In this document: positions 23,560 through 61,548 of the stretch, piece by piece
How positions within the stretch are numbered: the stretch's first letter is position 1
How the letters are laid out: every line of letters begins with the position of its first letter
Assembly: GCA_965113315.1 (NCBI GenBank)
Contig: OZ220371.1
Source of the DNA: Podarcis vaucheri
Lineage: Eukaryota
DNA length: 64,000 nucleotides
Reading direction: 5' to 3' (one strand)
The notes under the pieces: model-generated
Told to the model about the DNA's origin: nothing
The model's input: only the letters and a program-made list of their open reading frames with translations
The model's database searches: none
Made by a program: the position numbers and the translations under genes

Positions 23560-24400
23560 GAGAGAAAGACAGCCAGGGGTGCGAGACGCTCTTGTACTGA
23601 GGGAGGAGACTAGCATGAGCTTAGCACTGGCGAACAATGACAGCCAGATGGCCGCTGCCGCCCCCAACCCGCCATTTAAAGACTCGTCGATAACACCCCA
23701 CTTCTCGCGAGCTTTCGTGTTCACGTCGTCCCTGTTTCCCCCCGCAGAGGCGAGCGGAAACGCCCCCTTCCACGGCTTCGCCTTCTTCGCCTATCAGGCC
23801 CGGCCTATCCCGCGAAAGGGGCGGAGCTGTTCCTCCTACGTGGCTTAACACGCGTGAAGCGGCAGCGGCTTCCTCAGGTGCGGAAGCGAAGCGGCTTGTC
23901 AGGGAGGGGGGAAATGAGCGCGAGCGACGGGGGCGCGCGGGCCTTTTTCGCCTCTCCGCCGCGACGCGAATCCCTCCGCCAGGTTGGGCCTGAGCGACTA
24001 AGCCGCGAGTGACTCGACGCAGCGGAAGGCGCCTTCGCGGGCCCGGCGGCGATGGCGGCGGCCGAGGTGGAGTCGTCGCTGGAGCTGAGCCTGTCGAGCA
24101 GCTACGCGGCGCCGGGGACGTTGCCCCCCGCGCGCTCCCGCATCTTCAAGATCATCGTCATCGGGGACTCGAACGTGGGGAAAACGTGCCTCACTTTCCG
24201 CTTTTGCGCGGGCCGCTTCCCGGAGCGCACCGAGGCCACCATCGGGGTGGATTTCCGAGAACGCGCCGTCGACATCGACGGGGAGCGCATCAAGGTGCGG
24301 AAAGCCGAGGTCACCTCCTCGGGCTGCTTTTCCCCTGCCAGGCTCAAGGGCTGTTCTGCCGGCTGCCTTGCAGCTGGCACGTAGTAGATGCAAAGTGGCA
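23560..24400 (+). promoter_or_regulatory. CpG island / RAB33B promoter and first exon
   Basis: Sharp rise in GC and CpG density. Contains YY1-like motifs (CAGATGGCCG at about 23645; CCGCCATTT 23669-23677), TCTCGCGAG 23703-23711 and ETS-like CGGAAG sites. Confidence 0.9.
24052..24294 (+). CDS. RAB33B: RAB33B exon 1 coding part (MAAAEVES...GERIK)
   Basis: Kozak gcgATGG; donor gtgcgg at 24295. Confidence 0.96.
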
Positions 24401-26039
24401 GGGAGTCCGGGGCTGCTGCTGCTCCTTTAACAGGTGTGTGCAGAAAAGGCAGGTGCTTTGCCTCGGCAAGCGACGTCTGCTGAGATTTCCTCTGCTGCAA
24501 TACTGTTATAGGTGCAGGTGGCGAAAGATTGCCGCCGGTTGGACTAGATGACCCTCGTGGTCCCTTCCACGAGGGTCATCTTACACCAGGCCACCTGGCA
24601 GGAAAGAAGTGGGCAACTCCAGTCCTGTTGCTCATCCATGCTGCCTGGAGCTGACACACGGCCAAAAATAATGGAGGTCATTTGTTATACTTGTATCTCA
24701 GTTGCTTCCCCTGAATCAAGATTTGTAACAATCTGAGTGCGGTAACTTGAGGAAGGCCCCGTGAGCTTCATCGCTGAGCCCGAGGCTTGATGTTATAGTT
24801 GCACCTGTAAACATGCTGTTAGTTGCACCTCTGAACCCCTTGGTCTAACTAACTGTTGTTCATGTGCTGAGTGCTGAACATGTATTAACATCACACAGTT
24901 TTGAAGATGTGCTCATATTTAGTCAAACCTGTGGCCTATTGCATCTCTTTATCCCAGTGTTTAAATAAGCTCACAGAAGTTTGCAAACACATAATGCTAG
25001 TTTGCTAGGGCCTTGCAGAATTCTTCATCTCACCTCTAGCAACATGTGGTTTCTATGCTGGGTGCAGAGAAGTAGAGCTTCCATGCATCCAGCTGCATGG
25101 AATTCCTGGTTACCTTTGGGTACCAGCTAGTGCTTAAATGGAAAGTTGTGTCATCCTTATACATGTACTGTTATGTTAAGCAATGACACCTCTGCTTTTT
25201 AATTGAAATGTAAGCATGCTGATTTTTAAACCCACATAGATCCTAATTAAACTTAATACTCATGTCACAATGTGAATTTCTTGGCAAGCTCTTAATTCCT
25301 GCAATACCTCCATCTACAGTGAAAGATGCACAATTACTAATATTTAGTATAACTGTTTTTGAAAAGCTGATGCATAAAAAAGTGTTTGCAGGAAGCTTCA
25401 CAGCAAAAGTTTTCATTTATGTTTTGTTGCTGTTGCTGAGATATAAAACCACTGACCTCAAAGACCCTTATGAACAGAAATCATAGCAATATAAAAGTAC
25501 TGTTGAGTTAAAGTTGAAATTATGCCTTTCCACCAGCCTGAGTGAAATCATTTTTTTTCTTGTTTCTCTCCCTTCTTTCCCCTTCTTGGTACATCTAGAT
25601 TCAGCTCTGGGATACAGCAGGGCAGGAGCGATTCAGGAAGAGCATGGTACAGCACTATTACAGGAATGTACACGCAGTCGTTTTTGTATATGATATGACA
25701 AATATTGCCAGCTTCCATAGTTTGCCACTGTGGATCGAGGAATGCAAACAACACTTGCTCACCAATGATATACCCCGGATTTTGGTTGGAAATAAATGCG
25801 ATCTGAGAAGTGCAATTCAGGTCCCTACAGACATGGCTCAGAAATTTGCTGACACTCATAGCATGCCACTGTTTGAAACGTCTGCTAAAAACCCTAATGA
25901 CAATGATCATGTGGAAGCCATATTTATGACCCTGGCTCATAAGCTCAAGAGTCACAAGCCACTCATGCTTAGTCAGCTACCCGATAACACAATTCACCTA
26001 GAACCTGCAGTAAAACCTGCCATGCCATGTTGGTGTTAG
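24052..26039 (+). CDS. RAB33B: Ras-related protein Rab-33B, 227 aa, two coding exons (24052-24294, 25599-26039)
   Basis: Motifs GDSNVGKT (G1), TIGVDF (G2), WDTAGQERF (G3), NKCD (G4), ETSAK (G5) and C-terminal CWC prenylation site. Splice sites AAG|gtgcgg and ctag|ATT. Syntenic with NAA15 and SETD7. Confidence 0.97.
25599..26039 (+). CDS. RAB33B: RAB33B exon 2 coding part (IQLWDTAG...AMPCWC*)
   Basis: Long polypyrimidine tract, ctag acceptor, stop TAG. Confidence 0.96.
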
Positions 26040-28035
26040 CTCACAGTATTTTTGTAGTCATCACTTTGGTCTGTTTGCCAGTGCTTTGAGAGTATGGTGT
26101 TGGTAATGTTCCAGTTTAGTAGAAATTACATTGAATCTGCTGGGCACTTTATTGTATGTTCTCACATCTGGATGTGTGCCACTCTTATCTCTGCACTTTG
26201 TTAACTGTATCATCTAAATTACTGAAGATTTATGGACATTAGATTTGTGAAGCTTGACTCTGGTCCCATTGAAGTAGCTTAGTTCTGAGATCTTTTCTCC
26301 ACTAAAATAGAAATGTGTAGGTTAGGTCAAATCACTGATGCCTTTAGCATTCAATTTGAGCAGATCACGGTTCTATAGAAACCCAAAGAGTAGTATGACT
26401 TGATAATTTTAAGTGAATTACTTTTAGATAATTTGGTAAATTGATTTGTGAATTGTACTTCTATCACATGTCTTAATCATGCAATGGAATGAAGACTCGA
26501 CTTGAGCACAAGTGTTAAGTCACCTCTTGCCTTCATCTCATTACTTTATCTAAACTCTAGGTTAGTTAATTATGAAAGCAAGTGTAGAGCTACGGAGTTT
26601 ACTTTCTGTGTAAAGTTATGTTTGATGGCCCTCATAGTTTTGTATTCTTCTTTATATGTGAGGCAAAAATGACATTGGAAAAATATCCAGGGTTATCTTT
26701 TGCACAATAAAATGAAATCATGTGAATCTCATGGAACATTGGAAATTGCATTGAAAACTGAAGCTGTAGTGGATTGTTTATTTCTGATGTAACCACAGGA
26801 GATCAGAAAGTATCCACTCAATTGTGGTATTGCTCTGGAGGCGAAACCATCAATAGGAACGTCTGATCTTGTAGTTCAGATTCTCCCTAAATATTGTAAC
26901 ACTTTTTAAAAGGCTCTAACGCAATTCTAAAAATGTATCATTTATATTCATAACATTATGATATAACTTAAGGTGTATTGTTTGACTTTCATTATTAACA
27001 GTAGTTATAACCTACACAACATACAAAATGCCAAAACGTGAGACTTGATTGGGGTACTTTTAGTACCCCAATGGAATACTATGAAGCAAATGGCCAAGGT
27101 AAAAGTCTTAGGAATGCATGGTTTCTCTTACTAAAAACAAACAGTGAATTCAAATGTAGACTGCAAATAATATAGGGGAAATCATATGCTATTCTGTGTG
27201 GTTGGCTCACTATGTTTTGCTTTTGAAATAGCATAAAGTAGGAGCAACTGAACTTCAGAATCTACAATTTGTTTTTAAAAAAAAAACTACTTGTGTGCCT
27301 TAGCTATGAACACATGGAAGGGGCAGTCTATATCATCCCATAGTATCAAAAATAAAGACATAAAATATGAATGAAAGTGGCTGTTTTCCATAAGTAATAT
27401 TAGCAGCTTGTTTTTAGTAACAGTTAAGAGGTCTCTTCAAATCTATTTGCAGCACAGAGTGTCTATAAAGTGTTTAGAGCTGAACTTACAAGTTTTCTTG
27501 CTTGATGATTTCTGCTATAATAACTGCCCTCCACCTCTGGGCAGCTCAAGCTAAAGGGTAAGGGATAGGTGGACTTTCCTGTGTTCATTGTGTAACGTGC
27601 ACTACTGGCGCAAGCGCCCGATTCAGCCTTCCAGTACTGAGTAATTGACAAGTGGAGAAATCCTGGTGCCTATCTTCATCTCCTTGCACAAATATAGCTC
27701 CAGCCTTGTATATCTATTGTTGCTAATTAGGACCATCACCCATTAAAGAAAGAAATTTGAGCTTTTATTGACTAATAAAATATTAAAGTTACAAATATTG
27801 AGGAAGGGATAAAACTGTTCTGTAGAAAATGGCATAATTTGTGTGAATGACAGATGATGGGGATTGATTTTAATTATGTTTAATCTTTGTACTCTTGCTC
27901 TTCCCTCCACTTGGAAAGCTCAAGCTGCTAACAGTAACGTGTTGTTAGAATCCTGTTAGCAGTGGCTGCCACCTGGTGTTTCTTAAGTATTAAAAACAAA
28001 TATTTTACAAATCAATCAATGTTAATCAACTAGGA

Positions 28036-28166
28036 CAGCAGGAGACAACATGGTGCCCTCTAGATGTTGTGGACTACAACAGCCCTCAGTCCTAGTCAGC
28101 TTGGCCAGTGAACAGGGATGATGGTACTTGTAGTCCAAAACATCTGGAGGCTACTGCATTGGCTGT
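28036..28166. mobile_element. Degenerate hAT-type MITE
   Basis: ctctagatgttgtggactacaac...ttgtagtccaaaacatctggag inverted arms. Confidence 0.65.
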
Positions 28167-30091
28167 TTCGGAAGTAAGCATTACAAACCTTAGTATAAGT
28201 GAACCTTGTGTAGGAGCTGATCTTAACTCTCTTGTTCAGTACCATATCGTAACCTTTTATTTACATGTGTCCTACATTTCACATTTCGTGTTAGCTTGCA
28301 TATAACTTTTGGTTACATAAAAAGGGAAAGCAATGAAATTCAAGATACCGTTACATATTATTCTAAGAGAATGGAGTATCAGTATTATAGACTAACACTT
28401 AAAGAACAATTTACTTAATATTCCAAATCCAATTTGCTTATATCTACTGTGTGCTACTTATTAAATGTCTTACTAAGTTTTAACCTTTACTGTAATGTTA
28501 TTGAAGGCAGACATATTAGTACAATTTCTGTAATTGCCAAATACTAGGTGCTATTCTGTTGTACATTAGCATAGTGAAGTATAAAAAACTAGCTTTTGTG
28601 TTTAGGAAAATCTGTTGATTGCACCTTAATCAGTAAAATGCAAGGAGCACAATCCACTTGCATTGTGGGCCAAATGTGTGAGAGGATTGTGTCCAAGTTT
28701 ATATAGGATTATTATTATTTTGCTTATAACCAGAAGTGACAGGGTTTTTCTTGTTTAGTTTTTCTACAACACTTGAAAAAGGGAAGTTCTTTTTACTCTG
28801 TTTTGTGTCTTTACTTTTGGTTTACGCACTTTCTAGAAACCATTTATTTAATACGAAGACTCTTCAGTGATTTTTAATGAAAAAATGTTCATAAATGTAT
28901 ATTTCTAAAATATTTCTCAAATATAGTTTACACTCCTCTTTAGAGAACTCACCTGTTTACTTCATTTTCTTAATCCATTTAAGTAAAAGATAGCTTTTAA
29001 TGCAAATGTAATAATAATGTGTGCATTAAATAATATCCTAAAGAAAGTAAAAATAAAAACCAGGGTTCTATAATCAGAAGGAAGAGGGTGTTGAAGAATA
29101 AATCATGTGGCCACAACATATAGGACAACATCCCTGTATTGCTCCCAAGATAGGTCTGATAACTGATGTTGTATTTCACCCATAAATTCTGATGAAATGG
29201 TTATTTTGAAACTGTTTAAACTGCTATAGTATAGTATAGAATTGTTCTATCTTATTATTGCAAAATAACATTGAGCATTGTCATCTTATCAGCACCAGTT
29301 ACGTTGACAGTATCTTAAACAGAGTGTTGTTAATCCAAAATGCTTCCCCATTTAATAATGCTTTACCTACAAAATGTCAATTGTTCTTTCTAAAAGCAAA
29401 AGGAAAGATTTATTTAAATTACCACAAGTACGTGCCACTGTCTTAAACTAATAAATGCTAGCAAGTAAAATTCTGCTTTTGTCTCATTTTCCCCCACTGT
29501 AATTGCCTGTCAGTTAGAAACATTCACATTGTTATGAGTGTTGTGAAGCTTCCATGTCCTGAAAGATTCTTGCTTGCCTCAGGCAGGTATACCTAGGGCT
29601 ATTTTAAAAGTGTTTTATTTCTGGAGTTATATGTGCATTTGTCTTTAAAAAATGAATCTGTGGAAGAGGACCAATGGGCAAGATTGGATATGTTCAAATT
29701 GATTTCTTTAGTTTAGGCCAGATGGAGCATATGATATGAAAGGTGATGCCTCTTTAATGAAATACTAATTCCATACAAAACACAACCCATAAATTCTAAC
29801 AGGGGGCATTGGTGAAATCATTGGAGTAGAGTGCACTGGCTAATATTCACAGTATTTATCGGCCCACTCTTTGCTTTCTGTGCTAGCAGTGAAATCAGTT
29901 ATCACACGGAATCTTACGATTTCTGCACACCATTCCCATTTGAACAAGCAAATTTGCATTTGGAAAACTCATTTGCCCATGACAATTTTTCTGGTTCAAA
30001 GGATGCTTGCTATTATTGAAGATTCTATTACACAGCAGGAGTCAAATAAACACCATGGGGCTAAATTAAAATTTATGAAAATAGAATTAAG

Positions 30092-30097
30092 TTTATT
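30092..30097 (-). terminator. Candidate polyadenylation signal of the MS4A-like gene
   Basis: AATAAA on the - strand about 155 nt after the stop; another at 29619-29614. Confidence 0.45.
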
Positions 30098-30251: not shown

Positions 30252-30355
30252 TTAAGTCATCCTGATATACGGAGGTGGTTTGGGCATATCATCATCAGCT
30301 TCCATATCTAAATCTGAAAGTTTTACAGGAGAATTAAAAATTGTATCCACTTGAC
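30252..30355 (-). CDS. MS4A-like gene last coding exon (QVDTIFNS...DDDMPKPPPYIRMT*)
   Basis: gtcttttctattctag|GT CAA...ACT TAA, 104 nt. Confidence 0.83.
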
Positions 30356-33300
30356 CTAGAATAGAAAAGACACAGAGTGAGCATAAGTAGCTGCAGAAAG
30401 CAAACTTTGCCTTGATTACGTGTGCTGGTTACATGCAGACTAGACTGTTGTAATACACTGGTTATACATGGGGCTGCCTTTGAAAATAGTTTAGAAACTT
30501 CCACTGGTGCAGAAGGTAGCTGCCCAGATTCTTGCAGGGATCAGGCATTGGGAACACATAATACCCATATTTTACCAAATGCATTATCTGCCAATTCATT
30601 TCTGGGCGCCATTTAAAGGACTGTTTTTTACACTTAACCTAGCCCTAGACAATGTAGGGCTTTATTTGAAGGACAGCCTACGCTCTCAGAAATCTGCCCA
30701 GGCTTCAGAGGCCTAGCCTTGGTCCACCATCAATATCTGTTATTGTGGGCACCAATGACACAGATTTTTCTGTCTTCCTCCCTAGAAATATTACCAGGGT
30801 TTCTTTATTGTCTTTTAATTTTTTCTGTTCTAACCCACTATTGATTAAAAGAGCTATGTTGGGTTTTACAGTTCAATATTAATAAGAACAAATTAAACTA
30901 AAACCAGCAGTAAAGTAATGTGCTGGATTTTATTTTTAACCACTCCTGCCTAGTTTTTGTAATTGTAGTTAGATTGCTTTTATGGAAATGGCTTTTAATT
31001 ATTATGATTTTAAATAATATTTATATAGCCCAAATGTCTTCCTTACATATTCATTATTTGACTTACATATTTAGTAAATCTGAAATTAATTTTCAAGTAA
31101 AACAGTGAGAACACCTACATACCAGATGGAATGCAAACTAATTCTGCAATTTGTAGCTGGTCTTCATTAGATTCTAGCCTTTCCTAAGAATGAGAGCATG
31201 AGATTGTTAAATAGGTTCACCTGAGAATAGCACTGATCTTAGAATGTGCAGTTTTCGAGACAAACACAGTTTCATTTTGTAATTTGGTTAACCAAAAGTA
31301 ATTGTAATGGTATAATAATGAACAAGACTAAAAGTAAAAAGTTCTGCAGTTTAAGAAAAAGAAGCTATTCATCATATAATGCCCACCACAGTTTACCGTA
31401 TTTTCCTTTACAAAAGTATTCCTTAAATTTTTGCAGCTACCATTATCATAATTAAGAGATTTATTTCAAACCATTCACATTCAATAACCCTGATAATAAG
31501 CTGAACAAACATATCTATCTAAGAGATGCATACATATGGCAGTTATCAAACAATGAGAGGTCATCCTTAGAAGTGGTAAATGCTACATAATTGGCAAACC
31601 TTAAACACAAGGGGTAGTTTTCACTCAGGGTACACTGACTGAAATTAATGGAACTTATTTAGTCATATTCATTAATTTCAAAGGATCTACTCTGAATTAA
31701 ACTTAGCTGAATACCACCCATAGAACTGTGAACCTAGTAAAAAACATTTTATGCACACACCTGTCAAGAAAAACATGCAGAAGGGGCAGTTATATACAAT
31801 TTATACCCTACTCCTTAGCAAGTGCACAGAAGCTTATATAAGGATGCCAGTTATTTACCATCAAAGCACTGATGAGGTTCATAGCTGTTTAGTGTATACA
31901 GTGTGTCCACAAATCATTTGTTTCCAAATGACAATTCCAAAAATTAGTTTTGTGGGCATTTTGGGCTTAACTAGTTGAAGGGGAGGGGGAGTTAAGGAAA
32001 TATGGCAACTTCATATCAAACTGTCCATAAATGTTTTTACAGAATCCCAAAAGGCATTCCTTCCCAGTACAAAACAAGTAAACCCACCATATTTAATGGC
32101 AATGTTGCTACTTACAAGTCCAGTGACACTGTCATAGCATGAACAACATGGAAGACTTCGGCAACTCAAATAAGCAATAATCAGCACAATAAAAGCACTG
32201 AAAAGCGATGTAATCAGAAGTGTGATGTTGGCTCCTTCTACAAGTTTACCAAGCACAAATGCCTGCAACACAGAAAATGAGCACACACACCCTTTATCCA
32301 AAAAATGCAATTCAACCCTAGGAGTGGTGTGGGTATTGTTTTTAAAGCGCCTGGAAATTCTCTCTCTTTTTTTGTATTTTAATTATTTTACATGAAAAGG
32401 AATGACAAGTGAAAAACAACAATAAATAGTAACTGATAAATAGTTGAGCAACCACATATATGATCTATACATGTATACAAACTGATGGTGTCAATTAATA
32501 TCCTCAAATTGGGTGGATAAAATGAAAGTAATATATAAAAGGCAGACCAAACCCTGATCTGCCCCCAGTGTCTGTGCCAGTAGGAGGCATCCTTTACTAT
32601 GGAACTCCAAACAATACCTGCCATAAAAGGCATTTCAGGACCAAGAAGGGGGTGGTTGAGCCATCCAATGATTTTGCCTCTGCTGTGCTGGCCTGGACCT
32701 TGTTCAGTAAAGAAACACACAGAGTGATTTTCTTGCACCATCTTCTGCCCCAAACTGATGTGAGTGACAGGCCTTTGGGTGTGCTAGTTACTCTGTCACT
32801 CCTAAACTGTGTGCAATGTATTCAAAAGGGCAGAAACTGGATAGTTTGATACTTACAACAGCTGGGTGATGATAAGAGGACACATCGTCAAACTCTTCAT
32901 ATTTTTCACCATACTCTAATGTTATAGACGTATAGATGATTACAAGTAGCGTGACAAAGCAGGAAAATACAGAAGCAATTATCATTGCATTCACCTGTAC
33001 AAAAGGTATGGGGATAGAGAAGACCAGAGTTAAATTTGGGCTTCAGGTCAAAGGATGAAAAATAGTTCCACATATGCCTCTTATGCAATCTTTGTACACT
33101 ACAGTAATTTATTTTCCAGAGTAAATTTGGAGGAACATGCATTCACAATACAATGTCCAAAGTGTGGGTATGAATCAGTGAAAATCAAACCTTTCCTTTC
33201 CTAATTACACCTACCCGCTGCCCCCCGAGCCTGTGGGGCTGGCGGTGGGAGGAAGTGCTGCTTTTCCCCACCGCCAGCCTCAAAACCAGGTCCGGGAGCA

Positions 33301-36300: not shown

Positions 36301-37547
36301 CAGGGCCTTCTTGTCATCAGCCCCACAATTATGGAATTTCTTCTAACTCACAATTTGAGTTTTCAGCCCCAGGTGAAGAATGACTTATTTGCCCAGGTTT
36401 TTGGAGGCATCTACTACACTGTTGATTTGGATTTCAATTGGTTTTAATGTAACCTGCTTAGGGATTGCCTTGGCATTGAAGAACAGGTGGGAAATAGTTT
36501 GAATACAGAAACAGAAAAAACTTCCCATTGGCATTTGACTGGCCGCAGCTGGAAATGGAGCGCTGGAGAAGATGGAGATAAGCAACTAGCTTAAGACCAC
36601 AAGCCATATGAAGTGCAAACACCATAAATCAATTCCCCCTTCCAGTTAATTTACCTCTAAAAAACATTAAATTCTCCTATGTTTCCCAGGAGAAAGAAAA
36701 GTCCTTATTCCTCTCTCACCCAGACCAGTCCAGAGCATTCCTTCTGTGAGCCTGATCCTCAGCTCCCCCACTTCCAAATTAAGGAGATACAAGTCAGAAA
36801 TCAAAGGCAGCTGCAGTCACACTTGCCCTCTAGGGCCAGGCTTCCTCAACCTCAGCCTTCCAGATGTTTTTGGCCTACAACTCCCATGATCCCTAGCTAG
36901 CAGGACCAGTGGTCAGGGATGATGGGAATTGTAGTCTCAAAACATCTGGAGGGCCGAGGTTGAGGAAGCCTGCTCTAGGCTCTTACCACAAAACAACTAG
37001 GCCAGCACTCAGGGACGGCCCAAGGTGTTTCAGCACCTGAGACGAAATGCCCTGCTGTCACCCCTGCAATGGGGGCGGGACTCTTTAAGGGCTTCTTCTC
37101 AGCAACAGGGGTCTCCCAGCAGCTGGGCAAAGCCCCACCACACTGTCCAGCAGAGTGTGGAGATCTGCTGGCTTGTGGAATATAGAACCACATGTTCTCT
37201 ACAACAGTGAACAAATTCCCTGTATTATACCAAATTGTACAACCCTCCCTGCTGTACTTCCGACATCTACTGAATACTTTTTTTTATTGAAGCAGGCATT
37301 TCAATTGAAGTTTGATTTTATAGCCTTATAGTTTATACATCGTTAATAAAAAGGGGTGGGGGGTAGAATTTATATAGCTTACCACTCCAGCCCAGATGGG
37401 TATCCTAGATTTGCTCAGTGCCGAGTCCCTTCTGAAAGCACCATCGATTAATCCACCGATGATACAAACTGTAGCACAAGCTATCTGGAGGAGGCCCAAG
37501 AGAACCATACTTTTCTGATTGAAGATGAAATATCTGTAGCGATCCAT
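30252..37547 (-). CDS. Uncharacterised CD20/MS4A-like four-transmembrane protein, 224 aa, six coding exons
   Basis: Exons (- strand) 37547-37383, 35226-35167, 32994-32857, 32262-32116, 31183-31123, 30355-30252. All GT-AG with good polypyrimidine tracts, phases 0,0,0,0,1. They join into 675 nt with no internal stop. Four hydrophobic segments, MS4A-like LGLLQI and PIWAG motifs, C-terminal PPPY. Confidence 0.88.
30420..30790 (+). mobile_element. Degenerate L2 ORF2 3' fragment in the last intron of the MS4A-like gene
   Basis: LVTCRLDCCNTL and VQKVAAQILAG...EHIIPIFYQMHYLPI resemble the L2 ORF2 C-terminal region. Confidence 0.7.
31123..31183 (-). CDS. MS4A-like gene coding exon 5 (ERLESNEDQLQIAELVCIPS-G)
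   Basis: ctctcattcttag|GAA...TCTG|gtatgt, 61 nt. Supplies the phase 0 to 1 shift needed by the last exon. Confidence 0.8.
31612..31720. repeat. Old palindromic MITE-like repeat; relative at about 58130-58235
   Basis: Shared tgaaattaatgga...tctactc...ataccaccc sequence and self-complementary arms. Confidence 0.55.
32116..32262 (-). CDS. MS4A-like gene coding exon 4 (AFVLGKLVEG...CCSCYDSVTGL)
   Basis: ttttctgtgttgcag|GCA...CTT|gtaagt, 147 nt. Confidence 0.9.
32857..32994 (-). CDS. MS4A-like gene coding exon 3 (VNAMIIASVF...YHHPAV)
   Basis: tttttgtacag|GTG...GTT|gtaagt, 138 nt. Confidence 0.9.
33201..33570. mobile_element. Left-truncated mariner/pogo-type non-autonomous transposon related to 14511-15506
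   Basis: Right end ...cctatagagtgaaaaatacgg+TA; internal duplication of about 70 bp at 33215-33284 and 33324-33393. Confidence 0.85.
34630..35055 (-). mobile_element. Interspersed repeat, probably an RTE-related non-autonomous retroelement
   Basis: GC-richer block with ggatcagagttttccttctcctagatgggctaccttccc, recalled from squamate repeats; family assignment uncertain. Confidence 0.5.
35167..35226 (-). CDS. MS4A-like gene coding exon 2 (FMAIPGIMALFSSLRKNPVL)
   Basis: ccttttcttttgtag|TTT...TTG|gtatgt, 60 nt, phase 0. Too short to appear in the ORF track. Confidence 0.88.
36837..36972. mobile_element. hAT-type MITE
   Basis: TIR CAGGCTTCCTCAACCTC / GAGGTTGAGGAAGCCTG; near-perfect TSD ctctag(g)gc; internally the reverse complement of 10122-10257. 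Confidence 0.9.
37383..37547 (-). CDS. MS4A-like gene coding exon 1 (MDRYRYFIF...RIPIWAGV)
   Basis: Strong Kozak gaaATGG, in-frame TGA upstream, donor GTG|gtaagc. Upstream acceptor(s) at 37582 and/or 37634 imply a spliced 5' UTR. Confidence 0.9.
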
Positions 37548-53770: not shown

Positions 53771-53951
53771 TCACTTCTTCTGAGTAGCCTGGAAGGCTTT
53801 CAGTTCCACCTGATACCAGCCTGGAGCTTCCGGCCCATTTTGTCCAATGGGATTGTGATCGTATCCATAAGCCACTGTTAATTCTTCATCCTTCTCAACA
53901 GCCCTAATAGTGCGGATACATTTAATCAACCCAAAACGAGGATGAACAAAC
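53771..53951 (-). CDS. SETD7: SETD7 exon 8 (FVHPRFGL...QATQKK*)
   Basis: tctag|G TTT...AAG TGA, 181 nt. Confidence 0.96.
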
Positions 53952-56900
53952 CTAGAAAGGAAGGAAGCATACACAGTCAGAAAAAGGAAACTCGGCAAGC
54001 CCAAACGATGTATTCGTTTTCTTGAAAGCTTTACATATATCCTGTGTGTTTTTTAGATATAGGTGACGCAGCACTACCAGAAAACACTATAGGAGTGTCA
54101 CTGACCACTTTTTTTCCTGCAGCAAAATATTCATATCGTAAAACCTTTATTGGCATCACATACAACATCCAAAACAAATCAATACAGAATTGCCACTTCC
54201 CCAGTGGCACAAAACATTTGCTAAAAAGAAAGGAGGCAGAGCAGTCTATCGTCACATCTCTTGGTCTCCAGGGAGATCAGACGTCTGCAGTGTATTTCGA
54301 CGACAAAAAACCAAATAGAGATATTTAGCCAGCAGCAAAATATTGTTAAATAGCAACAACAAACGTTTTGGGAAAAGTTACAGTTAAGCAGTCCATCCAC
54401 TGTAGATAACACAGGAGAGTGGATGGGACTAAGAACAGAGGGCAGCAGAAACAGCTCTCTTGACTCACAGTAGGGCCACCGCTGAACGCAGAGGCAAAAC
54501 CAAGAAGATACACCTCAGCATCTTCTTCAACGAAAGATCCTACCACCCACCTCCCAGCAAAATATTTGTGGCTGGTGCAGGATTTTACACTTACAGTAGA
54601 TATGGGGTGTCTAACTTTTTCTGGACAGAGGGTTGTATTCACCTATTATCAACCCTCGGGAGTCACATGTTAATGTGGGCACGAACAAAGCACACAACTG
54701 GGCGTAGTTAATGAGTCTGCCTTCCAAAAGGGTCTCCCACCAGCAATCCTACACCATTTAAAATTTATTTTCATTCATTAAATTCGGTTAAAAACCATTT
54801 AATTTAAAAAAATGACAAATTTTGTAGGTTTTTTAGGAGGAGGGACCCCAAAAATCTTCAGGAGTAGCCTGACCATGGGTGGTCAGGGCTAGCCACCCCT
54901 GACTCAGAGCATGGTGGATAAGTGCCATTTTCCAGGAATGCTTCCCTTGCTTTCAACTGTATTTTTCATCAGTTTTCCCCACCCACTTGATTTAGTGCTG
55001 TAGTTGCCGTGATCCTTTGATATCATCTGCTATCGCATTGGCAGATACAGTTCTGACACCTGAAAAGCAGCACCTTCATCAAGCATAAGTTTAGTACTTA
55101 CGAGTCATAGACACTATTTGGTGTGAAAGAATGATTTGCCTTGTGCCCCAATGAGGCACAGTATTTGGCTGCGTGGTTGTAGGGTTCCGGTACATCTATG
55201 ACTGTTTCATCATCAAGGGATATTGTGTTACCATTCAGAGCCCAGTCCCTGCCATCCACCTAAAACAGACATTGTTGCAGTGTCAACTTTGTGTTTTTGT
55301 CAGCCTGAAGATACAATGCAGATTTTTCTTGTGTTACATGCTTTAAAGGAGAGAGACCAGTGGTATTCAATCAGGCTTGCAAGTACAGTCATGCCTCAGG
55401 TTAAAGATGCTTCGGGTTAAATCTTTTCAGGTTGCGTCCTGCAGCGACCCGGAAGTACCAGAAAGAGTTACTTCCGGGTTTCGCTGCTTGCGCAGAAGCG
55501 CAAAATGACGTCACGCGCATGCGCAGAGGCTGTGAATTGCGACCCGCGCGTGCGCAGACGCGGGTTGTGTTCCTTTCAGGTTGCGAATGGGCCTCTGGAA
55601 CGGATCCCGTTCGCAATCAGAGGTACCACTGTACTCTATTAGGAAACAAATTTAAGAGAAGGAAAACATGCCACTCCAATAGTCCTGACCATAGTAAGTT
55701 GCCTTAACTTCTTGCCCTTTCTGCTTCATTACCTCTACACAATAAAAATCAGTTTTACAGCAGACTTGTGGCACACTTACTGAAATCTCTAATCGAGTGA
55801 ACAAAATCATCCTTAATTTTCAAAGGCTTGCTGGACTGATATTAAAGAAACTGAGAAGCAAGATACACTTTTAACAAGACAATTCTCTGTAGAGAACCTT
55901 TGGGTCTTCAAATACTTGTGAGATCCCATAATGACTACAGGATCCTTGACCATGCATTATATGAAATCAACACACTTTTTTTACCCAGTCCTGGTGAATA
56001 CTGAAGCATTTTTGAAATAATAGGGTGAACAAGCAACAAAAATGTTTCCAAAAAGGTAGTGTTTCAGAAGTAGCAATGAAAAGTTCTCACTTCACTTTAC
56101 CTCCTGGTGTGTAATTCGTACGCCATTGTAAAAGGACATAACTGTGCCAACCTCAGCAGATACTTTAGTAAATAACCCTTCTCCTGCGCTGGAAATGAGA
56201 GATGCATCTACATATACCCTGATGAAAGGAAAGAGTAAAAAGAAAGTACAGTGTCATTATTACTACTCTGTAATACACTAATATTTTTAGAAAACTATTT
56301 TATTAGTTTGTGTAAATTTGAGATCATTAATTTTGGGCCATGGGAAGAAATACTAGCACAGGTGTCAAATGTGACAAAGCCTCTGTGTTTAGAAAAAAGG
56401 GAAAGTGTATCAATACTTTGCCCAACAAAATGCAGAGTCCCATCAAGTTTCTGTCCCTGCCAAATCCTGATTATGTAAATTGAAGATCATCTTCTGAACA
56501 GCCAAATAAAAGTATTGCAATGTTTTTTTGGGCAAGGAGTGGGTGGAGAAACAGTTATTTGTAGCCACTGAGAGATATATTAAACAAAGAAATACTTTAG
56601 TACAGTACCACAGTTTTTCACTACTGTACTTAAAAATTCATTTAAAAATCACTTTTAGAAGAAATATAAAAGTTTCCTCCTAATAGTTACAGATTTTTCA
56701 TACCAATTCATGTTTTTAGGAAAACATTTCAATTCAATTAAGCTCATGCAAGATAACCATCAAATTAATGAGCTAATATGATGTCATTTGCACACAAGTA
56801 GTTCTGTTTGCAATTCAAAGGAATAAAGTGTTGCTGAATGCTGTCTTAAAATGCGAAGCAGAACAACTAAATTGTTTCTTTGCAAATATTTAAGAAAGGG

Positions 56901-59900
56901 AGCGAAACGATACACATAAATTATTCTACCTCTCCGATTCATAAGGATCAGGAAGAAGTGCATTTGTAGAAATGCAAGATGAAGTAGATTTATCAAAACT
57001 GTATACTGGGCCTAAAAACAAAGCAAAACAAAACAAAAAAAGTACACAAATTAATGGACAATCAAGATGAAGATGCAGGTCTCTCTCTTATTAAAGTGTT
57101 AGGCATTCAACACACCATAAGGAAATTAAGTTTTTAAAACAAGACAGCAAAAATATTGTATTTAGGTCTGTCTACTATATAATAAAACAGTGCTCTGCAT
57201 ACATTTTTTTCACCATTTTCATTTCTCCTCAAAACTGCAAGCAGTATTCAGTCACCTTTGTAACAAATATGAGTTGAGGTTTATACATGCTAGAAATAAT
57301 GTTTCCCAACAGTGCTTTAACATTATATTTCCCCCCTGAATATGTAAAACCAAGTTAAAAATGCATGCACCCCACATCAACTATGTGTGGTCAGTGCATA
57401 TTATCACCATCACTTTTCCTCAACAAAATCAAAAGCAGCAGCAATTGATATAGAACCGGGACCCAATTTCATTACCTTTTACCAAAAGAAGTGGAAAGAA
57501 AAATGTGTCTCAACTGATATATGGTATTTATACTTTGCATACCAGGTCCAAATTCAAAATGTAAAGTGAAGCGACCCTAAACTACCATTCCTTATACTTC
57601 TTCTGGCTCGGAGTGTACAACCCGCTCCAATCCATTTTGTCAACACACCATGGCAGCTCTAATTTTAGTAATTCTATCTTGCAGAGTGGAGGGCATTGGC
57701 ACAGGAACAAAATTGGAGCAATGTGAAAATAGAAAAACTGAAAGCATTGTTTGCTCAAACTTATCTCCAAAAAGGTGTGTGGAAGCCATGCTACACAACA
57801 CCATTTTGCACATCAAGGAGAACCTACTGCCTGGCAGCACTTCAAATTGTGGCTTCCCCTCTTCTACGGATACAAGAGTTGCCAGCTTTGCTTCCAACAT
57901 TTCACCATCTATGAAGTGTCCATAATAGGCCATCTTCCCATCAGGGTACACATAGGCTATCTTCTCGCCAGTCATCTCTCCCTCTTCATTAACTTCTCCA
58001 ACCAGATGTCCACCATCCTGAATGAGAAGCATAATATTGGTACAATAAATGCTGCACCTTTTTAAGAGGGAAATGTTTCTGTGTGCACACACGTTTTTAA
58101 AACCTTTCAATAGCAACACAGATATTGCACTGCATCCAACTAACTTTTTCTCAGAGAAGACCCATTGAAATTAATGGACCTAAGTTAATCATGTCAATGA
58201 GTCTACTCCAGGTATAATTTAGATGGATACCACCCAAAAGTAACAACTGTGCTAATTGAAATACGTTTATAATATTTTTGTTTCATAGGTACCAGCTGAA
58301 GCTTAGGTTATTTAAACCTCACTTCCTGCTGCCTCTGATCTTTTGCTACCCTGTACAGATCTCAGTGACTTGTGTTTATTCCAGCAATCCAGTTCTGCTA
58401 TAACAAAGCCCTGTGTAAATCCAGGGTATTTCTACAAAAAAAAGGGGGGGCACTTCCAAACAAATTGCAGCCAAATTAACCATAAACCAAGTAAAATAAC
58501 TGAACAGTATTCTTTAGCTCTTCAATCCATAAACAGATAGATGGATAAATAAATAACCTGCAGCGGATTTTTTTTTTTGAGGGGTTTTGTGAACCAAAGA
58601 TAAAAACCGTAAGAGCCTTGTTAGAGATCCATTACAGCTTCATCTCCAAGATTGTGACAGCCATTATGGGCCTGTTCACTATTTTATTGAGAAGCATAGA
58701 ACAGACACTTCTCTGAACAGGTTCTTTGCGTCTCTAGTCATGCCTAGTAAGTTATATATATATATTTAACTTCCCAAGATTATCCAGTTAAATGCTGATA
58801 TTTATAAACACAGTTTTTACACAGAAGTCACATTGACCTTTGGGGGGGTGGGGCTGGGGAGGACAGCAAAAATATAGATGTTTAAAAGCACACTGAATCC
58901 TTTTTTCTAGCTTCCAAGTTCAGAACATTTTGTTACAGCGGACTGATGTCTAAAGCATGTGCATAGTTACTATTCAGTATTTATTTAGGCAAAGTGTCAC
59001 TAGCTTGAGTGGCCTGAATAGAGCTATTCATTTGTGAAAGCCAGAGGCAACCCTGCTATAATGGTTCTAAATTAAAGACAGTAGAGAACTATGTTCAGCA
59101 AAGTATTTATGAAGAAAAGCACCTCTCTTAGAATGAAAAGTAAAACCCACAAAGGTTTGACAAATCTTTAAAAAGATGCACATGGCTGAGAAAGGCACAT
59201 GGTGCGTTTTACTCTCATGTACACAGTTTGCACACAGCAGCAACTTGTGGAAGGCAAATGTACCCTATCACGCATAATCTGCATCCAAATTCTGAGAAGC
59301 CACAACCACCACAAGTGTGAAAAGGATTGCTAGGATTCTGGTAGGCTGCCAAATCACAACCCTTTGCTCTCCTTTGCAGGTGGCAGTTATGCAGCCCAGC
59401 TGTCTCTCTCAACAGCGCAACGGGATTTGTCTTCCCCATGTGTAAGATATCACTTCATCCCCTACTTTGCTGCCACACCTCCCCATTTAGGTTTATAACT
59501 CATTTCCCACCTTGCATATTTGAAAAAGTCCAACGTACTTACAGGGTAGTATATCCAACAAATCCCACATCGAATATTATCTTTGTATTGCCCTTTGAAT
59601 ATCAGTCGCCCATCAGCATCATATTCCTGGGCTGGCCCATTTAGTTCTCCATCTACGTAAGTGCCATGAAGAGCTCCTCCATCTTCATATGTATATACAC
59701 CCTGGCCTTGCAGAGCATCATCCACATAATAGCCTTCTAATGTGCTGGTAACGAGAAAAGGGTAGGGCACAGGGATCAATAGTATCTAGTTTATTATATG
59801 AAATGTTCTCAAAGTAAAAATGTCTCATTACCTTAAGGACACTCTCCCCACAATGCAGAACTGCTAGGGCTTCAATATCAGCCTCAGCCACTTTGCTCTC

Positions 59901-61341
59901 TGTACCATCATCTCAGGTAAGTGAGCAACAGGACCTTCTTGGTAGTGGCCCAGTAACTCTACCATTCTGACTTGCGGAGATCTGTCAGGCTCCCTCTCTG
60001 GTTCATTTTCATCACAAGTTGGAAACATTTCTTTTCTGGGCAGCCTTTAACATCTCAGTTTTTACTATCACTGGCTTTCTATACTTGTAGATCATTGCTC
60101 TTAATCTGTTTATGGAAGTGTTTAAAATGTGTGTTGCTTTTTAATTTGGTTTTTAAACCAAATTACTGGAGGCTAAACCCCTGCTTGCTCTGCTTACCAA
60201 TCCACCTGCCATTCCCTCCACATTAACACTTTAGCACTTCCCCTTCCCACCCCATGCAACTACCGGTATTAAGCTTGATTTTCCCCCTCCCAAACCCCAT
60301 TTTCTGATACCACTTCTCTCTTCTATAATGCAATCGCACTTTGTCTCCCTGTTTTCACCTTCACCCCCATGCCTTTGCCTCCTCCTCTTGTGCAACCTCC
60401 CTTGCACACAACCCCCCCCCCAATAACCTCATATTATACATCTCCCATACACTGTATTGCTAAGCACCCTTTTTACCTTCTGCCCAATTATGAAGACACT
60501 ATCCCCTGCTATTCTTCAGACTCTTTCATGCCAGTTTTCATATTCAACCCCATTCCGATGCCACCTGCTTCCTCCTTTCTTGCACCCTGATTTTCACCAT
60601 CACTTCCTTTCTACCTCCACCGCCTCCTTACTTTTCTGAACTGTCCCTGGCACACGGATTAAACCCATTTCCAGACTTCATCCTCTCTCCTGTTCTGCAG
60701 TCTCCCTTGTGTGCACACCCCATGCTATTACTGTATGTTTAAGGTGACTAGAACCTTAAGAGCAAGCCTGTCAGTTATCTTGCTCAGTTAGAGAAGGTTA
60801 CATCCGTTGATGGATGCTGTACATATAATTACTATACTGGACATGGAGCTTTGTGTTGAAGACAACACATGGTACCAGGAGTGAAATACATTGTGGGAAG
60901 GTACTATGGAATGTTTCAGGGCTCTAATGAGGCAGCTGAGGAATGGAATAGGGAGAAGTTTAGAACAGCTTTTTTTCCCTCCCTTTCAGTGTCTCTCCCT
61001 TCTTGCTCTACTCAAACAGCATTAGCAGAGTGAACTGCAAGGGTAAGGTGTGGGAGGAGATTTATTAACTTTGTCTTATTTTCACAGCCATAGTCTAGAA
61101 AAAACCCCCACAAAGTTATAAAAATATTTGAAGTATTAAGCAAGCAAGCAAGCAAACAAACAAACAAACAAACAAACAAACAAACAAAGCCATACCCAAA
61201 AGAATGCCTACCTTCCATCAAAGAAAAAGAACTTTCCACGGCCATTCTTCTCTCCGTGCACAAAGTTTCCCTCAAATCTGTCTGTGGAGGAGTATGTGAC
61301 CGTACAGAACCCGTGCGGCATCCCATCATCATCGAGTGCAC
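53771..61341 (-). CDS. SETD7: Lysine N-methyltransferase SETD7 (SET7/9), exons 2-8; exon 1 not found in the window
   Basis: Exons (- strand) 61341-61212, 59744-59543, 58017-57828, 57011-56930, 56218-56101, 55259-55102, 53951-53771. MORN repeats, SET motifs [14 protein letters not shown] and ELTVAYGY, ending [19 protein letters not shown]. Confidence 0.98.
55102..55259 (-). CDS. SETD7: SETD7 exon 7 (VDGRDWAL...[13 protein letters not shown])
   Basis: tttag|GTG...GACTC|gtaagt, 158 nt. Confidence 0.96.
55386..55631. mobile_element. Tc1/mariner-pogo-type MITE
   Basis: TA+CAGTCATGCCTCAGGTT...CAGAGGTACCACTG+TA; paralogue of 8130-8367. Confidence 0.9.
56101..56218 (-). CDS. SETD7: SETD7 exon 6 (RVYVDASL...RITHQE)
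   Basis: atcag|G GTA...CAGGAG|gtaaag, 118 nt. Confidence 0.96.
56930..57011 (-). CDS. SETD7: SETD7 exon 5 (SPVYSFDK...DPYESE)
   Basis: tttag|GC CCA...GAGAG|gtagaa, 82 nt. Confidence 0.95.
57828..58017 (-). CDS. SETD7: SETD7 exon 4 (DGGHLVGE...FEVLPG)
   Basis: ttcag|GAT...GGCA|gtaggt, 190 nt. Confidence 0.93.
59543..59744 (-). CDS. SETD7: SETD7 exon 3 (STLEGYYV...CWIYYP)
   Basis: accag|C ACA...CCT|gtaagt, 202 nt. Confidence 0.96.
61138..61187. repeat. Compound microsatellite (AAGC)n(AAAC)n
   Basis: Directly visible. Confidence 0.95.
61212..61341 (-). CDS. SETD7: SETD7 exon 2 ([11 protein letters not shown]...FFFFDG)
   Basis: ttag|GT...GGAAG|gtaggc, 130 nt. Confidence 0.96.
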
Positions 61342-61401
61342 CTAATAAAAATTGAAAAGAGGCCAGTGAGACCAAGACAATGATACTGCAAGAGTTCATG
61401 C

Positions 61402-61548
61402 CAGTGGCGTAGCGTGGGTTGTCAGCACCCGGGGCAAGGCAAGTAATTTGCGTCCCCTAACCCGTGGATTTGCTCCCCCTAACCCTAACCCCCAGATGTT
61501 GCACCCAGTGCGGCCGGCCCCCCCTGCACCCCCCATGCTACGCCACTG
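61402..61548. mobile_element. hAT-type MITE with perfect 8-bp TSD
   Basis: TIR CAGTGGCGTAGCGTGGG / CCCATGCTACGCCACTG; TSD gttcatgc at 61394-61401 and 61549-61556. Confidence 0.93.

What the first reader, a model, noticed from the sequence alone, without database searches (positions are those of the whole stretch)
30252..30355. C-terminal trafficking/ubiquitin-ligase module: acidic cluster plus overlapping PPPY and YxxM
Seen: the tail ends DLDMEADDDMPKPPPYIRMT*. Established knowledge: PPxY binds WW domains of NEDD4-family HECT ligases, as in the multi-pass adaptors LAPTM4/5, NDFIP1/2 and ENTREP1. Yxx-hydrophobic motifs bind AP mu subunits for endolysosomal sorting, and phosphorylated YxxM binds PI3K p85 SH2 domains. 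Inference: one tyrosine could switch between ligase binding, sorting and signalling. The protein would then be an endolysosomal NEDD4 adaptor rather than a classical immune MS4A. The N-terminus carries a second Yxx-hydrophobic motif (YRYF).
Basis: partly seen in the sequence, partly recalled or inferred. Interest (0 to 1): 0.72.

Follow-up and report, generated by a model that had tools for sequence, protein, structure and literature searches.

The report
Conserved sorting tail of CD20-like protein
This is the real, spliced last exon of an unstudied four-pass membrane protein found from hagfish to birds, and its conserved end likely acts as a familiar kind of tag for pulling the protein off the cell surface and marking it for breakdown, while the proposed PI3K signalling site is not conserved.

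Summary
The tail is real. It is the last exon (30355-30252, minus strand) of a six-exon, 224-aa CD20-like four-pass protein, the orthologue of zebrafish zgc:113425, lying between a Rab and a SET7 gene. All five junctions are seen in RNA of a close relative. Across 132 anchored orthologue tails, Yxx[LMFIV] is kept in 129, Arg at Y+2 in 118, PPxY in 96 (107 with LPxY), but YxxM in only 32 (27 birds); Met swaps freely with Leu and Phe. The PI3K arm is therefore not supported. All 10 shark entries and hagfish lack the second proline yet keep YxxL; lampreys lack the motif. The best reading is an ENaC-type extended PY motif (PPxYxxΦ) overlapping a clathrin-adaptor Yxx Φ signal that likely governs the protein's own uptake and ubiquitination. 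A role as NEDD4 adaptor is possible but unsupported: there is one PY motif, known adaptors carry several. The overlap and the tyrosine switch have precedents (ENaC, beta-dystroglycan), and CD20-like proteins with PY tails are known (FAM189/ENTREP). No binding is shown here. No mammalian orthologue was seen. New member of a known kind; modest interest.

The parts
30252..30355 (-). Exon 6 coding part: end of the disordered cytoplasmic tail and stop
   Evidence: joint to exon 5 in RNA; pLDDT under 50 for residues 161-224
30255..30281 (-). Terminal motif K216-PPPY-I-R-M-T224: PY motif overlapping Y-x-R-hydrophobic
30288..30314 (-). Acidic run D205-D213, ending 7 residues before Tyr220
   Evidence: mean 3-5 acidic residues in the 10 positions Y-14 to Y-5 in every anchored group
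30282..30284 (-). Position Y-5: Pro here, Ser or Thr in 122 of 132 orthologue tails (candidate phospho-site absent in this lizard)
30092..30097 (-). AATAAA, likely poly(A) signal; the spliced contig of X1 ends near 30071, those of X2, X3 and X5 somewhat earlier
31123..31183 (-). Exon 5 (61 nt), mid-tail
32116..32262 (-). Exon 4: TM4 and juxtamembrane R-S-L-P-x-C-x-C-Y-D (32160-32131); Cys161 and Cys163 are likely palmitoylation sites (inference)
32857..32994 (-). Exon 3: TM3 and the acidic, His-bearing, cysteine-free second outer loop
35167..35226 (-). Exon 2 (60 nt): second half of TM2 and inner loop with Lys71 (0.98 conserved; candidate ubiquitin acceptor, inference)
37383..37547 (-). Exon 1 coding part: near-invariant short N-terminus with YRYF (37538-37527), TM1, first half of TM2
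24052..26039 (+).
53771..61456 (-). Neighbour: SET7/SETD7 exons, upstream on the same strand (extent approximate)
   Evidence: PF22648

Best explanation
The stretch is the transcribed last exon of a conserved CD20-like four-pass membrane protein (zgc:113425 family), and its terminal motif, acidic run-[ST]-K-P-P-P-Y-x-R-[LFM]-x-end, likely works as an ENaC-type composite signal that controls the protein's own removal from the surface and turnover. Inferred steps: the Y-x-R-hydrophobic core, the oldest part, would dock on a clathrin-adaptor mu subunit; the prolines would let NEDD4-family WW domains bind the same tyrosine and ubiquitinate nearby lysines (Lys216, Lys71); the two uses exclude each other, and phosphorylation of the tyrosine or of the Y-5 Ser/Thr could tune them. 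Shown: gene, splicing, fold class, conservation pattern. Not shown: any binding, location or ubiquitination.
For: Gene model and RNA joints. Pfam CD20, 79 bits against a cut-off of 27.9, for the near-identical P0001; four helices and a disordered tail; best fold matches Fc-epsilon-RI beta (E 6.9e-5) and CD20. Of 132 anchored tails: Tyr 130, Yxx[LMFIV] 129, YxR 118, PPxY 96, LPxY 11. PPxYxxL is the extended PY motif of ENaC that binds Nedd4-family ligases (PMC2582799, passages; PMC2217480, passages). The mu2 pocket takes Leu, Phe, Met or Ile at Y+3, the set that varies here, and Arg at Y+2 packs on Trp421 (PMC5694535, passages). Negative charge or phosphate upstream of a PY motif raised Nedd4 WW affinity three- to eightfold in U24, though extra Glu in Nogo-A did not (PMC5209733, passages). 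The lizard genome holds NEDD4L-type WW exons.
Against: No experiment. The second proline is lost in 10 of 10 shark entries and hagfish, and 9 of 25 teleost entries have neither PPxY nor LPxY, so WW binding cannot be universal. Three lamprey entries lack the motif; one bird has Phe and one Cys at the tyrosine. A hydrophobic Y+3 serves both WW and mu binding, so sequence cannot tell them apart. The tyrosine lies about 63 residues after TM4, unlike membrane-near lysosomal signals (recalled), so 'endolysosomal' residence is not established. Few conserved lysines face the cytoplasm.
Confidence: 0.58

Rival explanations
1. It is a NEDD4-family adaptor or activator acting in trans, like NDFIP, LAPTM or ENTREP: the four-pass body binds a cargo, and oligomers cluster single PY motifs enough to switch the ligase on.
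For: CD20-like ENTREP/FAM189A2 activates ITCH through PPxY motifs (PMC8811627, passages). Membrane tethering or polymerisation lets PY proteins activate these ligases, and Dvl2 does so with one motif when polymerised (PMC5892558, abstract and introduction). 4 of 14 distant CD20-like hits other than this family carry [PL]PxY (a 15th distant hit, P0185, is not a membrane protein and was left out).
Against: One PY motif only; adaptors are described as carrying multiple, LAPTM5 three (abstract start), ENTREP two. PPxY is dispensable in sharks and many teleosts. No cargo is known; oligomer state untested.
Confidence: 0.15
2. The tyrosine is a phospho-signalling site: YxxM recruits PI3K p85, or more loosely a phospho-YxxL recruits another SH2 protein.
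For: This lizard, Pogona, 27 of 33 anchored bird entries and one medaka species read YxxM. A C-terminal PPxY whose phosphorylation recruits SH2 proteins is known in beta-dystroglycan (PMC10752950, passages and a cited title). Six shark entries and hagfish have V or L at Y-2, which fits the ITIM pattern (pattern recalled).
Against: Met in 32 of 132; none in 22 amphibian, 11 cartilaginous-fish, 6 non-teleost ray-fin, 5 turtle/crocodile entries; 5 suboscine bird entries have Leu. A single site, no ITAM pair. No phosphorylation data.
Confidence: 0.08
3. The motif anchors the protein to a non-ligase WW scaffold (dystrophin/utrophin, MAGI, YAP, WWOX) or to an unidentified binder of P-x-P-Y-x-R-L-end.
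For: An extreme C-terminal PPxY binds dystrophin and utrophin in beta-dystroglycan; chains of the dystrophin-glycoprotein complex are weak fold matches (E 0.016 and 0.10). The tyrosine lies 4 residues from the end in most tails, and Pro at Y-1 (123 of 132) and Y-3 (111) persists where Y-2 is lost, which neither the WW nor the mu model fully explains.
Against: No second PY motif for tandem-WW scaffolds; the Y-x-R-hydrophobic preference matches the mu pocket; a sarcospan-like exon (name recalled) scores no better against the family profile than an MS4A-like exon.
Confidence: 0.14

Closest known systems
zgc:113425 family (zebrafish gene name; 'uncharacterized' in the records seen)
   Same: This gene is its lizard member: exon 1 is 98% identical to the Podarcis raffonei protein P0001, with the same tail; one locus in the genome.
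   Different: This lizard lineage has Met at Y+3 and Pro in place of the Y-5 Ser/Thr. No functional study was found.
ENaC extended PY motif (PPxYxxL)
   Same: PPxY with hydrophobic Y+3 in the C-terminal tail of a multi-pass membrane protein.
   Different: Different host fold; the motif sits at the extreme end; Arg at Y+2 is conserved; the prolines are optional in some lineages.
ENTREP/FAM189 proteins
   Same: CD20-like domain plus cytoplasmic PPxY.
   Different: Two or more PY motifs and a 343-residue tail in ENTREP, described as single-pass; here four helices, a tail of about 65 residues and one motif. Orthology was not tested directly.
MS4A family (CD20, Fc-epsilon-RI beta)
   Same: PF04103, four-helix fold, phase-0 intron in mid-TM2.
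   Different: 13-20% identity to the solved chains; own clade with support 100/99 including hagfish and lamprey; intron one codon earlier than in two lizard MS4A-like genes; single gene; no cysteines in the second outer loop; no ITAM.
NDFIP1/2, LAPTM5 (NEDD4 adaptors)
   Same: Small multi-pass proteins with cytoplasmic PY motifs.
   Different: Unrelated folds; multiple PY motifs.
beta-dystroglycan C-terminal PPxY
   Same: [quoted passage not shown]
   Different: Single-pass protein; its partner is dystrophin or utrophin.

Membership tests
CD20-like (PF04103) | Profile score over the curated cut-off | tested here: met
   P0001 79.2 bits vs 27.9; four further orthologues 76-100 bits; hagfish and lamprey 45 bits
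CD20-like (PF04103) | Four membrane helices, CD20/MS4A fold | tested here: met
   helices 11-38, 49-69, 73-106, 119-157; Foldseek top hits 8y81_B, 8yvu_B, 8k7t_B, then CD20
zgc:113425 orthologue group | Full-length similarity and nesting in one clade | tested here: met
   44-83% identity to jawed-vertebrate members; clade 100/99; atlas first hit 0.97
zgc:113425 orthologue group | Conserved neighbourhood | tested here: inconclusive
   only hints: a frog record named SET domain containing 7 and a model fused to a MamL-1 domain; other genomes could not be read
MS4A proper | Groups with vertebrate MS4A proteins | tested here: not met
   separate from six MS4A-like proteins in a 23-row tree with long branches and a midpoint root; no human MS4A sequence was in the tree
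MS4A proper | Member of a tandem gene cluster | tested here: not met
   single locus between a Rab and SET7
NEDD4-family PY ligand | [PL]PxY in a cytoplasmic disordered tail, conserved | tested here: met
   PPPY here; 107 of 132 tails; cytoplasmic side inferred from MS4A topology
NEDD4-family PY ligand | Binds WW domains and is ubiquitinated | not testable with these tools
   needs pull-down and cell assays
NEDD4 adaptor (NDFIP/LAPTM/ENTREP type) | Multiple PY motifs | tested here: not met
   at most one [PL]PxY in each of the 88 proteins
NEDD4 adaptor (NDFIP/LAPTM/ENTREP type) | Promotes ubiquitination of another protein | not testable with these tools
   no cargo known
AP-mu tyrosine signal | Yxx-hydrophobic, conserved, Arg favoured at Y+2 | tested here: met
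   129 of 132 and 118 of 132; pocket described in PMC5694535
AP-mu tyrosine signal | Binds a mu subunit and drives sorting | not testable with these tools
   no mu protein was folded or assayed
PI3K p85 docking site | Conserved Met at Y+3 | tested here: not met
   32 of 132; weighted frequency 0.13
PI3K p85 docking site | Tyrosine phosphorylated in cells | not testable with these tools
   no phosphoproteome at hand

The most novel reading that the evidence does not exclude
An ancient vertebrate CD20-like lineage, older than jawed fishes and apparently lost in mammals, is an unrecognised NEDD4-family activator that clusters single PY motifs by oligomerising and is gated by a Ser/Thr next to an acidic run. 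Its natural variants (sharks and hagfish keep YxxL but drop the WW proline; lampreys drop the motif; lacertid lizards drop the Ser/Thr) would separate clathrin-adaptor sorting from ligase recruitment on one tyrosine.
Probability: 0.13. Interest if true: 0.55.

Novelty: new member of a known kind. Interest (0 to 1): 0.3.

Why it matters
It gives a first testable handle on a single-copy CD20-like gene kept from hagfish to birds for which no functional study was found, and it places a CD20-like lineage in jawless fishes and elephant shark, where a 2010 survey reported no MS4A or TMEM176 genes (PMC2826416). The motif type is familiar, and no mammalian orthologue was seen, so the reach is comparative cell biology rather than medicine. 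The lineage variants are a ready series for asking whether WW or AP binding is the primary use of a PPxYxx-hydrophobic motif.

Tried and rejected
Complex prediction of the tail (residues 192-224) with a NEDD4L-type WW domain from the lizard genome: no answer, score 0.08 against a mark of 0.34, controls not folded; counted neither for nor against. No listed holder was on record as RNA in the run search; evidence comes only from the lays. Single-cell runs X21 and X22 gave 5 and 6 reads on the stretch and no exon 5-6 joint; too thin to weigh. A candidate exon 2 near 33990 was dropped for 35226-35167, which RNA confirms. No exon-skipping joints were listed for exons 3-6; 38 joints were not shown. 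Literature: '113425'+'zgc' gave 4 papers, one opened (a PubMed-number false match), three unrelated by title; RAB33B/SETD7/MS4A search gave 1 unrelated paper; two searches showed no title on this gene; supplements, where such gene names often stand, were not searched. The 1996 paper on AP-2 motif preferences is not held. No earlier scan findings. Kinship to sarcospan or to copepod CD20-like proteins: weak; hhalign 92% for the copepod protein against 96% for an axolotl MS4A4A-like protein. Rejected: PDZ ligand (no hydrophobic last residue in most tails), ITAM (one YxxL), Tyr164 as a second sorting signal (many teleosts have Arg at its +3), functional link to the Rab neighbour (adjacency only).

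Full report
Observation. The coordinates hold the coding part of a terminal exon on the minus strand. It reads GQVDTIFNSPVKLSDLDMEADDDMPKPPPYIRMT* behind a polypyrimidine tract and AG. Five upstream exons (37547-37383, 35226-35167, 32994-32857, 32262-32116, 31183-31123) give with it one 224-codon frame, all GT-AG, four phase-0 introns and one phase-1. All five joints appear in RNA data of a close relative whose sequence differs by a few percent. The exon 5-6 joint is in 6 of 8 runs laid, from 3 of 4 studies: 8 reads from 5 starts in X23, 8 from 7 starts in X24, all with the first mate on the plus strand as expected for a minus-strand RNA, and contigs in X1, X2, X3, X5, which are RNA by guess. 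An AATAAA at 30097-30092 lies just inside the end of the longest spliced contig.

What the gene is. Exon 1 found 88 proteins among 113 candidates, best the Podarcis raffonei protein P0001 (224 aa, 98%); fish hits are named zgc:113425. P0001 scores 79 bits on Pfam CD20. AlphaFold2 gives four helices and a tail with pLDDT under 50 from residue 161; the best solved folds are Fc-epsilon-RI beta and CD20 at 14-20% identity, and the sequence profile finds Fc-epsilon-RI beta at E 3e-4. The genome holds one locus. A profile search and look-ups added sharks, birds, hagfish and lampreys; a second search listed 120 of 207 hits, from elephant shark and coelacanth to birds. No mammal appears among the named records; 87 hits were not listed and most representatives are unnamed, so loss in mammals is likely, not proven. 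In a 23-row tree the family, with hagfish and lamprey, forms a clade at 100/99, apart from six vertebrate MS4A-like proteins; several branches are long and the root is a midpoint. The mid-TM2 intron is phase 0 as in two lizard MS4A-like genes and one sarcospan-like gene (name recalled) but one codon earlier. A 2010 survey reported no MS4A or TMEM176 genes in jawless fishes or elephant shark (PMC2826416, parts 1-2 of 5 read), so this lineage seems to have lain outside it. Neighbours are a Rab-family GTPase and SET7.

Conservation of the tail. I grouped 137 of the 292 proteins fetched; left out were unnamed Logan records, fragments, most duplicate isoforms, most models lacking the last exon and non-orthologues. 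132 could be anchored on the terminal aromatic residue; the 5 others are three lamprey entries without the motif, one truncated bird isoform and one bird with Cys at that place. Of the 132: Tyr 130; Yxx[LMFIV] 129; YxR 118; PPxY 96; LPxY 11; YxxM 32. Entries are not independent. By group, PPxY is in 25 of 26 squamates, 32 of 33 birds, 19 of 22 amphibians, all 14 turtle, crocodile, tuatara, lobe-fin and non-teleost ray-fin entries, 5 of 25 teleosts (11 more LPxY), elephant shark, but 0 of 10 shark entries (PAPY, PVPY, PATY) and not hagfish (PLPY). YxxM is confined to this lizard lineage, Pogona, 27 birds and three entries of one medaka. Weighted by lineage over 52 jawed-vertebrate sequences, the columns read Ser 0.80 at Y-5, Lys 0.79, Pro 0.89, 0.88, 0.95, Tyr 1.00, Arg 0.88 at Y+2, and Leu 0.65, Phe 0.22, Met 0.13 at Y+3. 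The acidic run persists as composition (3-5 of 10 residues) rather than as sequence. The tyrosine lies 4 residues from the end in most tails. PPxYxx[LMFIV] arises in 0.4% of shuffles of the lizard tail.

How it likely works. PPxYxxL is the extended PY motif of ENaC, the Nedd4-family binding site (PMC2582799 and PMC2217480, passages). The AP-2 mu2 pocket accepts Leu, Phe, Met or Ile at Y+3, and Arg at Y+2 packs on Trp421 (PMC5694535, passages); this is the variation seen here. The simplest model is a composite signal acting on its own protein: mu binding for uptake or sorting, WW binding for ubiquitination on Lys216 or Lys71 (0.79 and 0.98 conserved). The retention of YxxL where the second proline is lost suggests that the tyrosine-hydrophobic core is the older and less dispensable part (inference). 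The conserved Ser/Thr behind the acidic run resembles a casein kinase 1 site (pattern recalled); charge upstream of a PY motif can raise WW affinity, but not always (PMC5209733, passages). This lizard lineage is the one entry of 132 with Pro there. All binding steps are inferred; none was shown.

Rivals. Adaptor in trans: ENTREP, a CD20-like protein, activates ITCH through two PPxY motifs and is described as single-pass (PMC8811627, passages); adaptors usually carry multiple PY motifs, but membrane clustering can make few motifs effective (PMC5892558, abstract and introduction); LAPTM5 has three (PMC2064599, start of abstract). With at most one motif per protein this stays open at low odds. 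PI3K site: fails conservation. A general tyrosine switch has a precedent in beta-dystroglycan (PMC10752950, passages). A non-ligase WW scaffold or an unknown binder of the free C-terminus is possible, since Pro at Y-1 and Y-3 and the fixed distance to the end are not fully explained.

The N-terminal YRYF. Residues 1-14 are the most conserved segment (0.91). Phe9 falls in register with the Phe or Leu of the MS4A pre-TM1 stretch in five of six MS4A-like proteins, and in hagfish and lamprey only Tyr6 of the two tyrosines is kept. The first helix starts at residue 11. A membrane-interface or packing role is more likely than sorting (inference).

Comparison and novelty. Overlap of PY and Yxx-hydrophobic motifs, a tyrosine switch, and PY tails on CD20-like proteins are all known; 4 of 14 distant CD20-like hits here carry [PL]PxY, and FAM189 members are listed as CD20-domain WW binders (PMC4815072, passages). 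Comm and PRRG proteins show another extended PY motif (PMC5578492, passages). What is new is the assignment of such a motif to this unstudied family and its pattern of loss. No paper on the gene was found; supplements and subscription journals were not covered.

Verdict. Observation confirmed; interpretation partly supported; new member of a known kind; interest 0.30.

Noticed in passing
window 37547-37506 (-): The 14-residue N-terminus is more conserved (0.91) than any membrane helix or the tail among jawed vertebrates; its role is unexplained.
   Followed up: partly
window 32160-32131 (-): Juxtamembrane R-S-L-P-x-C-x-C-Y-D; the two cysteines are invariant in the 21-row alignment with hagfish and lamprey, and a copepod CD20-like protein has C-x-C-Y-D and a PPPY at a similar distance.
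   Followed up: partly
window 32910-32857 (-): The second outer loop is acidic and His-rich in fishes, amphibians and archosaurs and has no cysteines; it could bind metal or sense lumenal pH (speculation).
   Followed up: no
window 31183-31123 and 30355-30327 (-): Two further conserved tail patches, E-L-V-C (184-187) and R-[IL]-F-N-x-P (195-200), match no motif I could name.
   Followed up: no
proteins P0008, P0012, P0095, P0096, P0002: Database isoforms of 173-203 aa lack about one phase-0 exon each; loss of a whole TM3 or TM4 exon would flip the tail out of the cytoplasm. No such joint was listed in the runs laid.
   Followed up: partly
proteins P0013, P0058, P0073, P0102: Several orthologue records carry wrong names (ribosomal protein L23, SET domain containing 7, ubiquitin hydrolase 38), and one model is fused to a MamL-1 domain.
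   Followed up: partly
window 33121-33754, 34389-35340, 36608-37241: Intronic high-copy repeats draw thousands of reads on both strands.
   Followed up: no
window 26039-30071: The Rab gene and this gene converge; a roughly 4-kb contig overlapping 29000-29470 in X1 and X5 may be a long Rab 3' UTR ending some 600 bases from this gene's 3' end.
   Followed up: no
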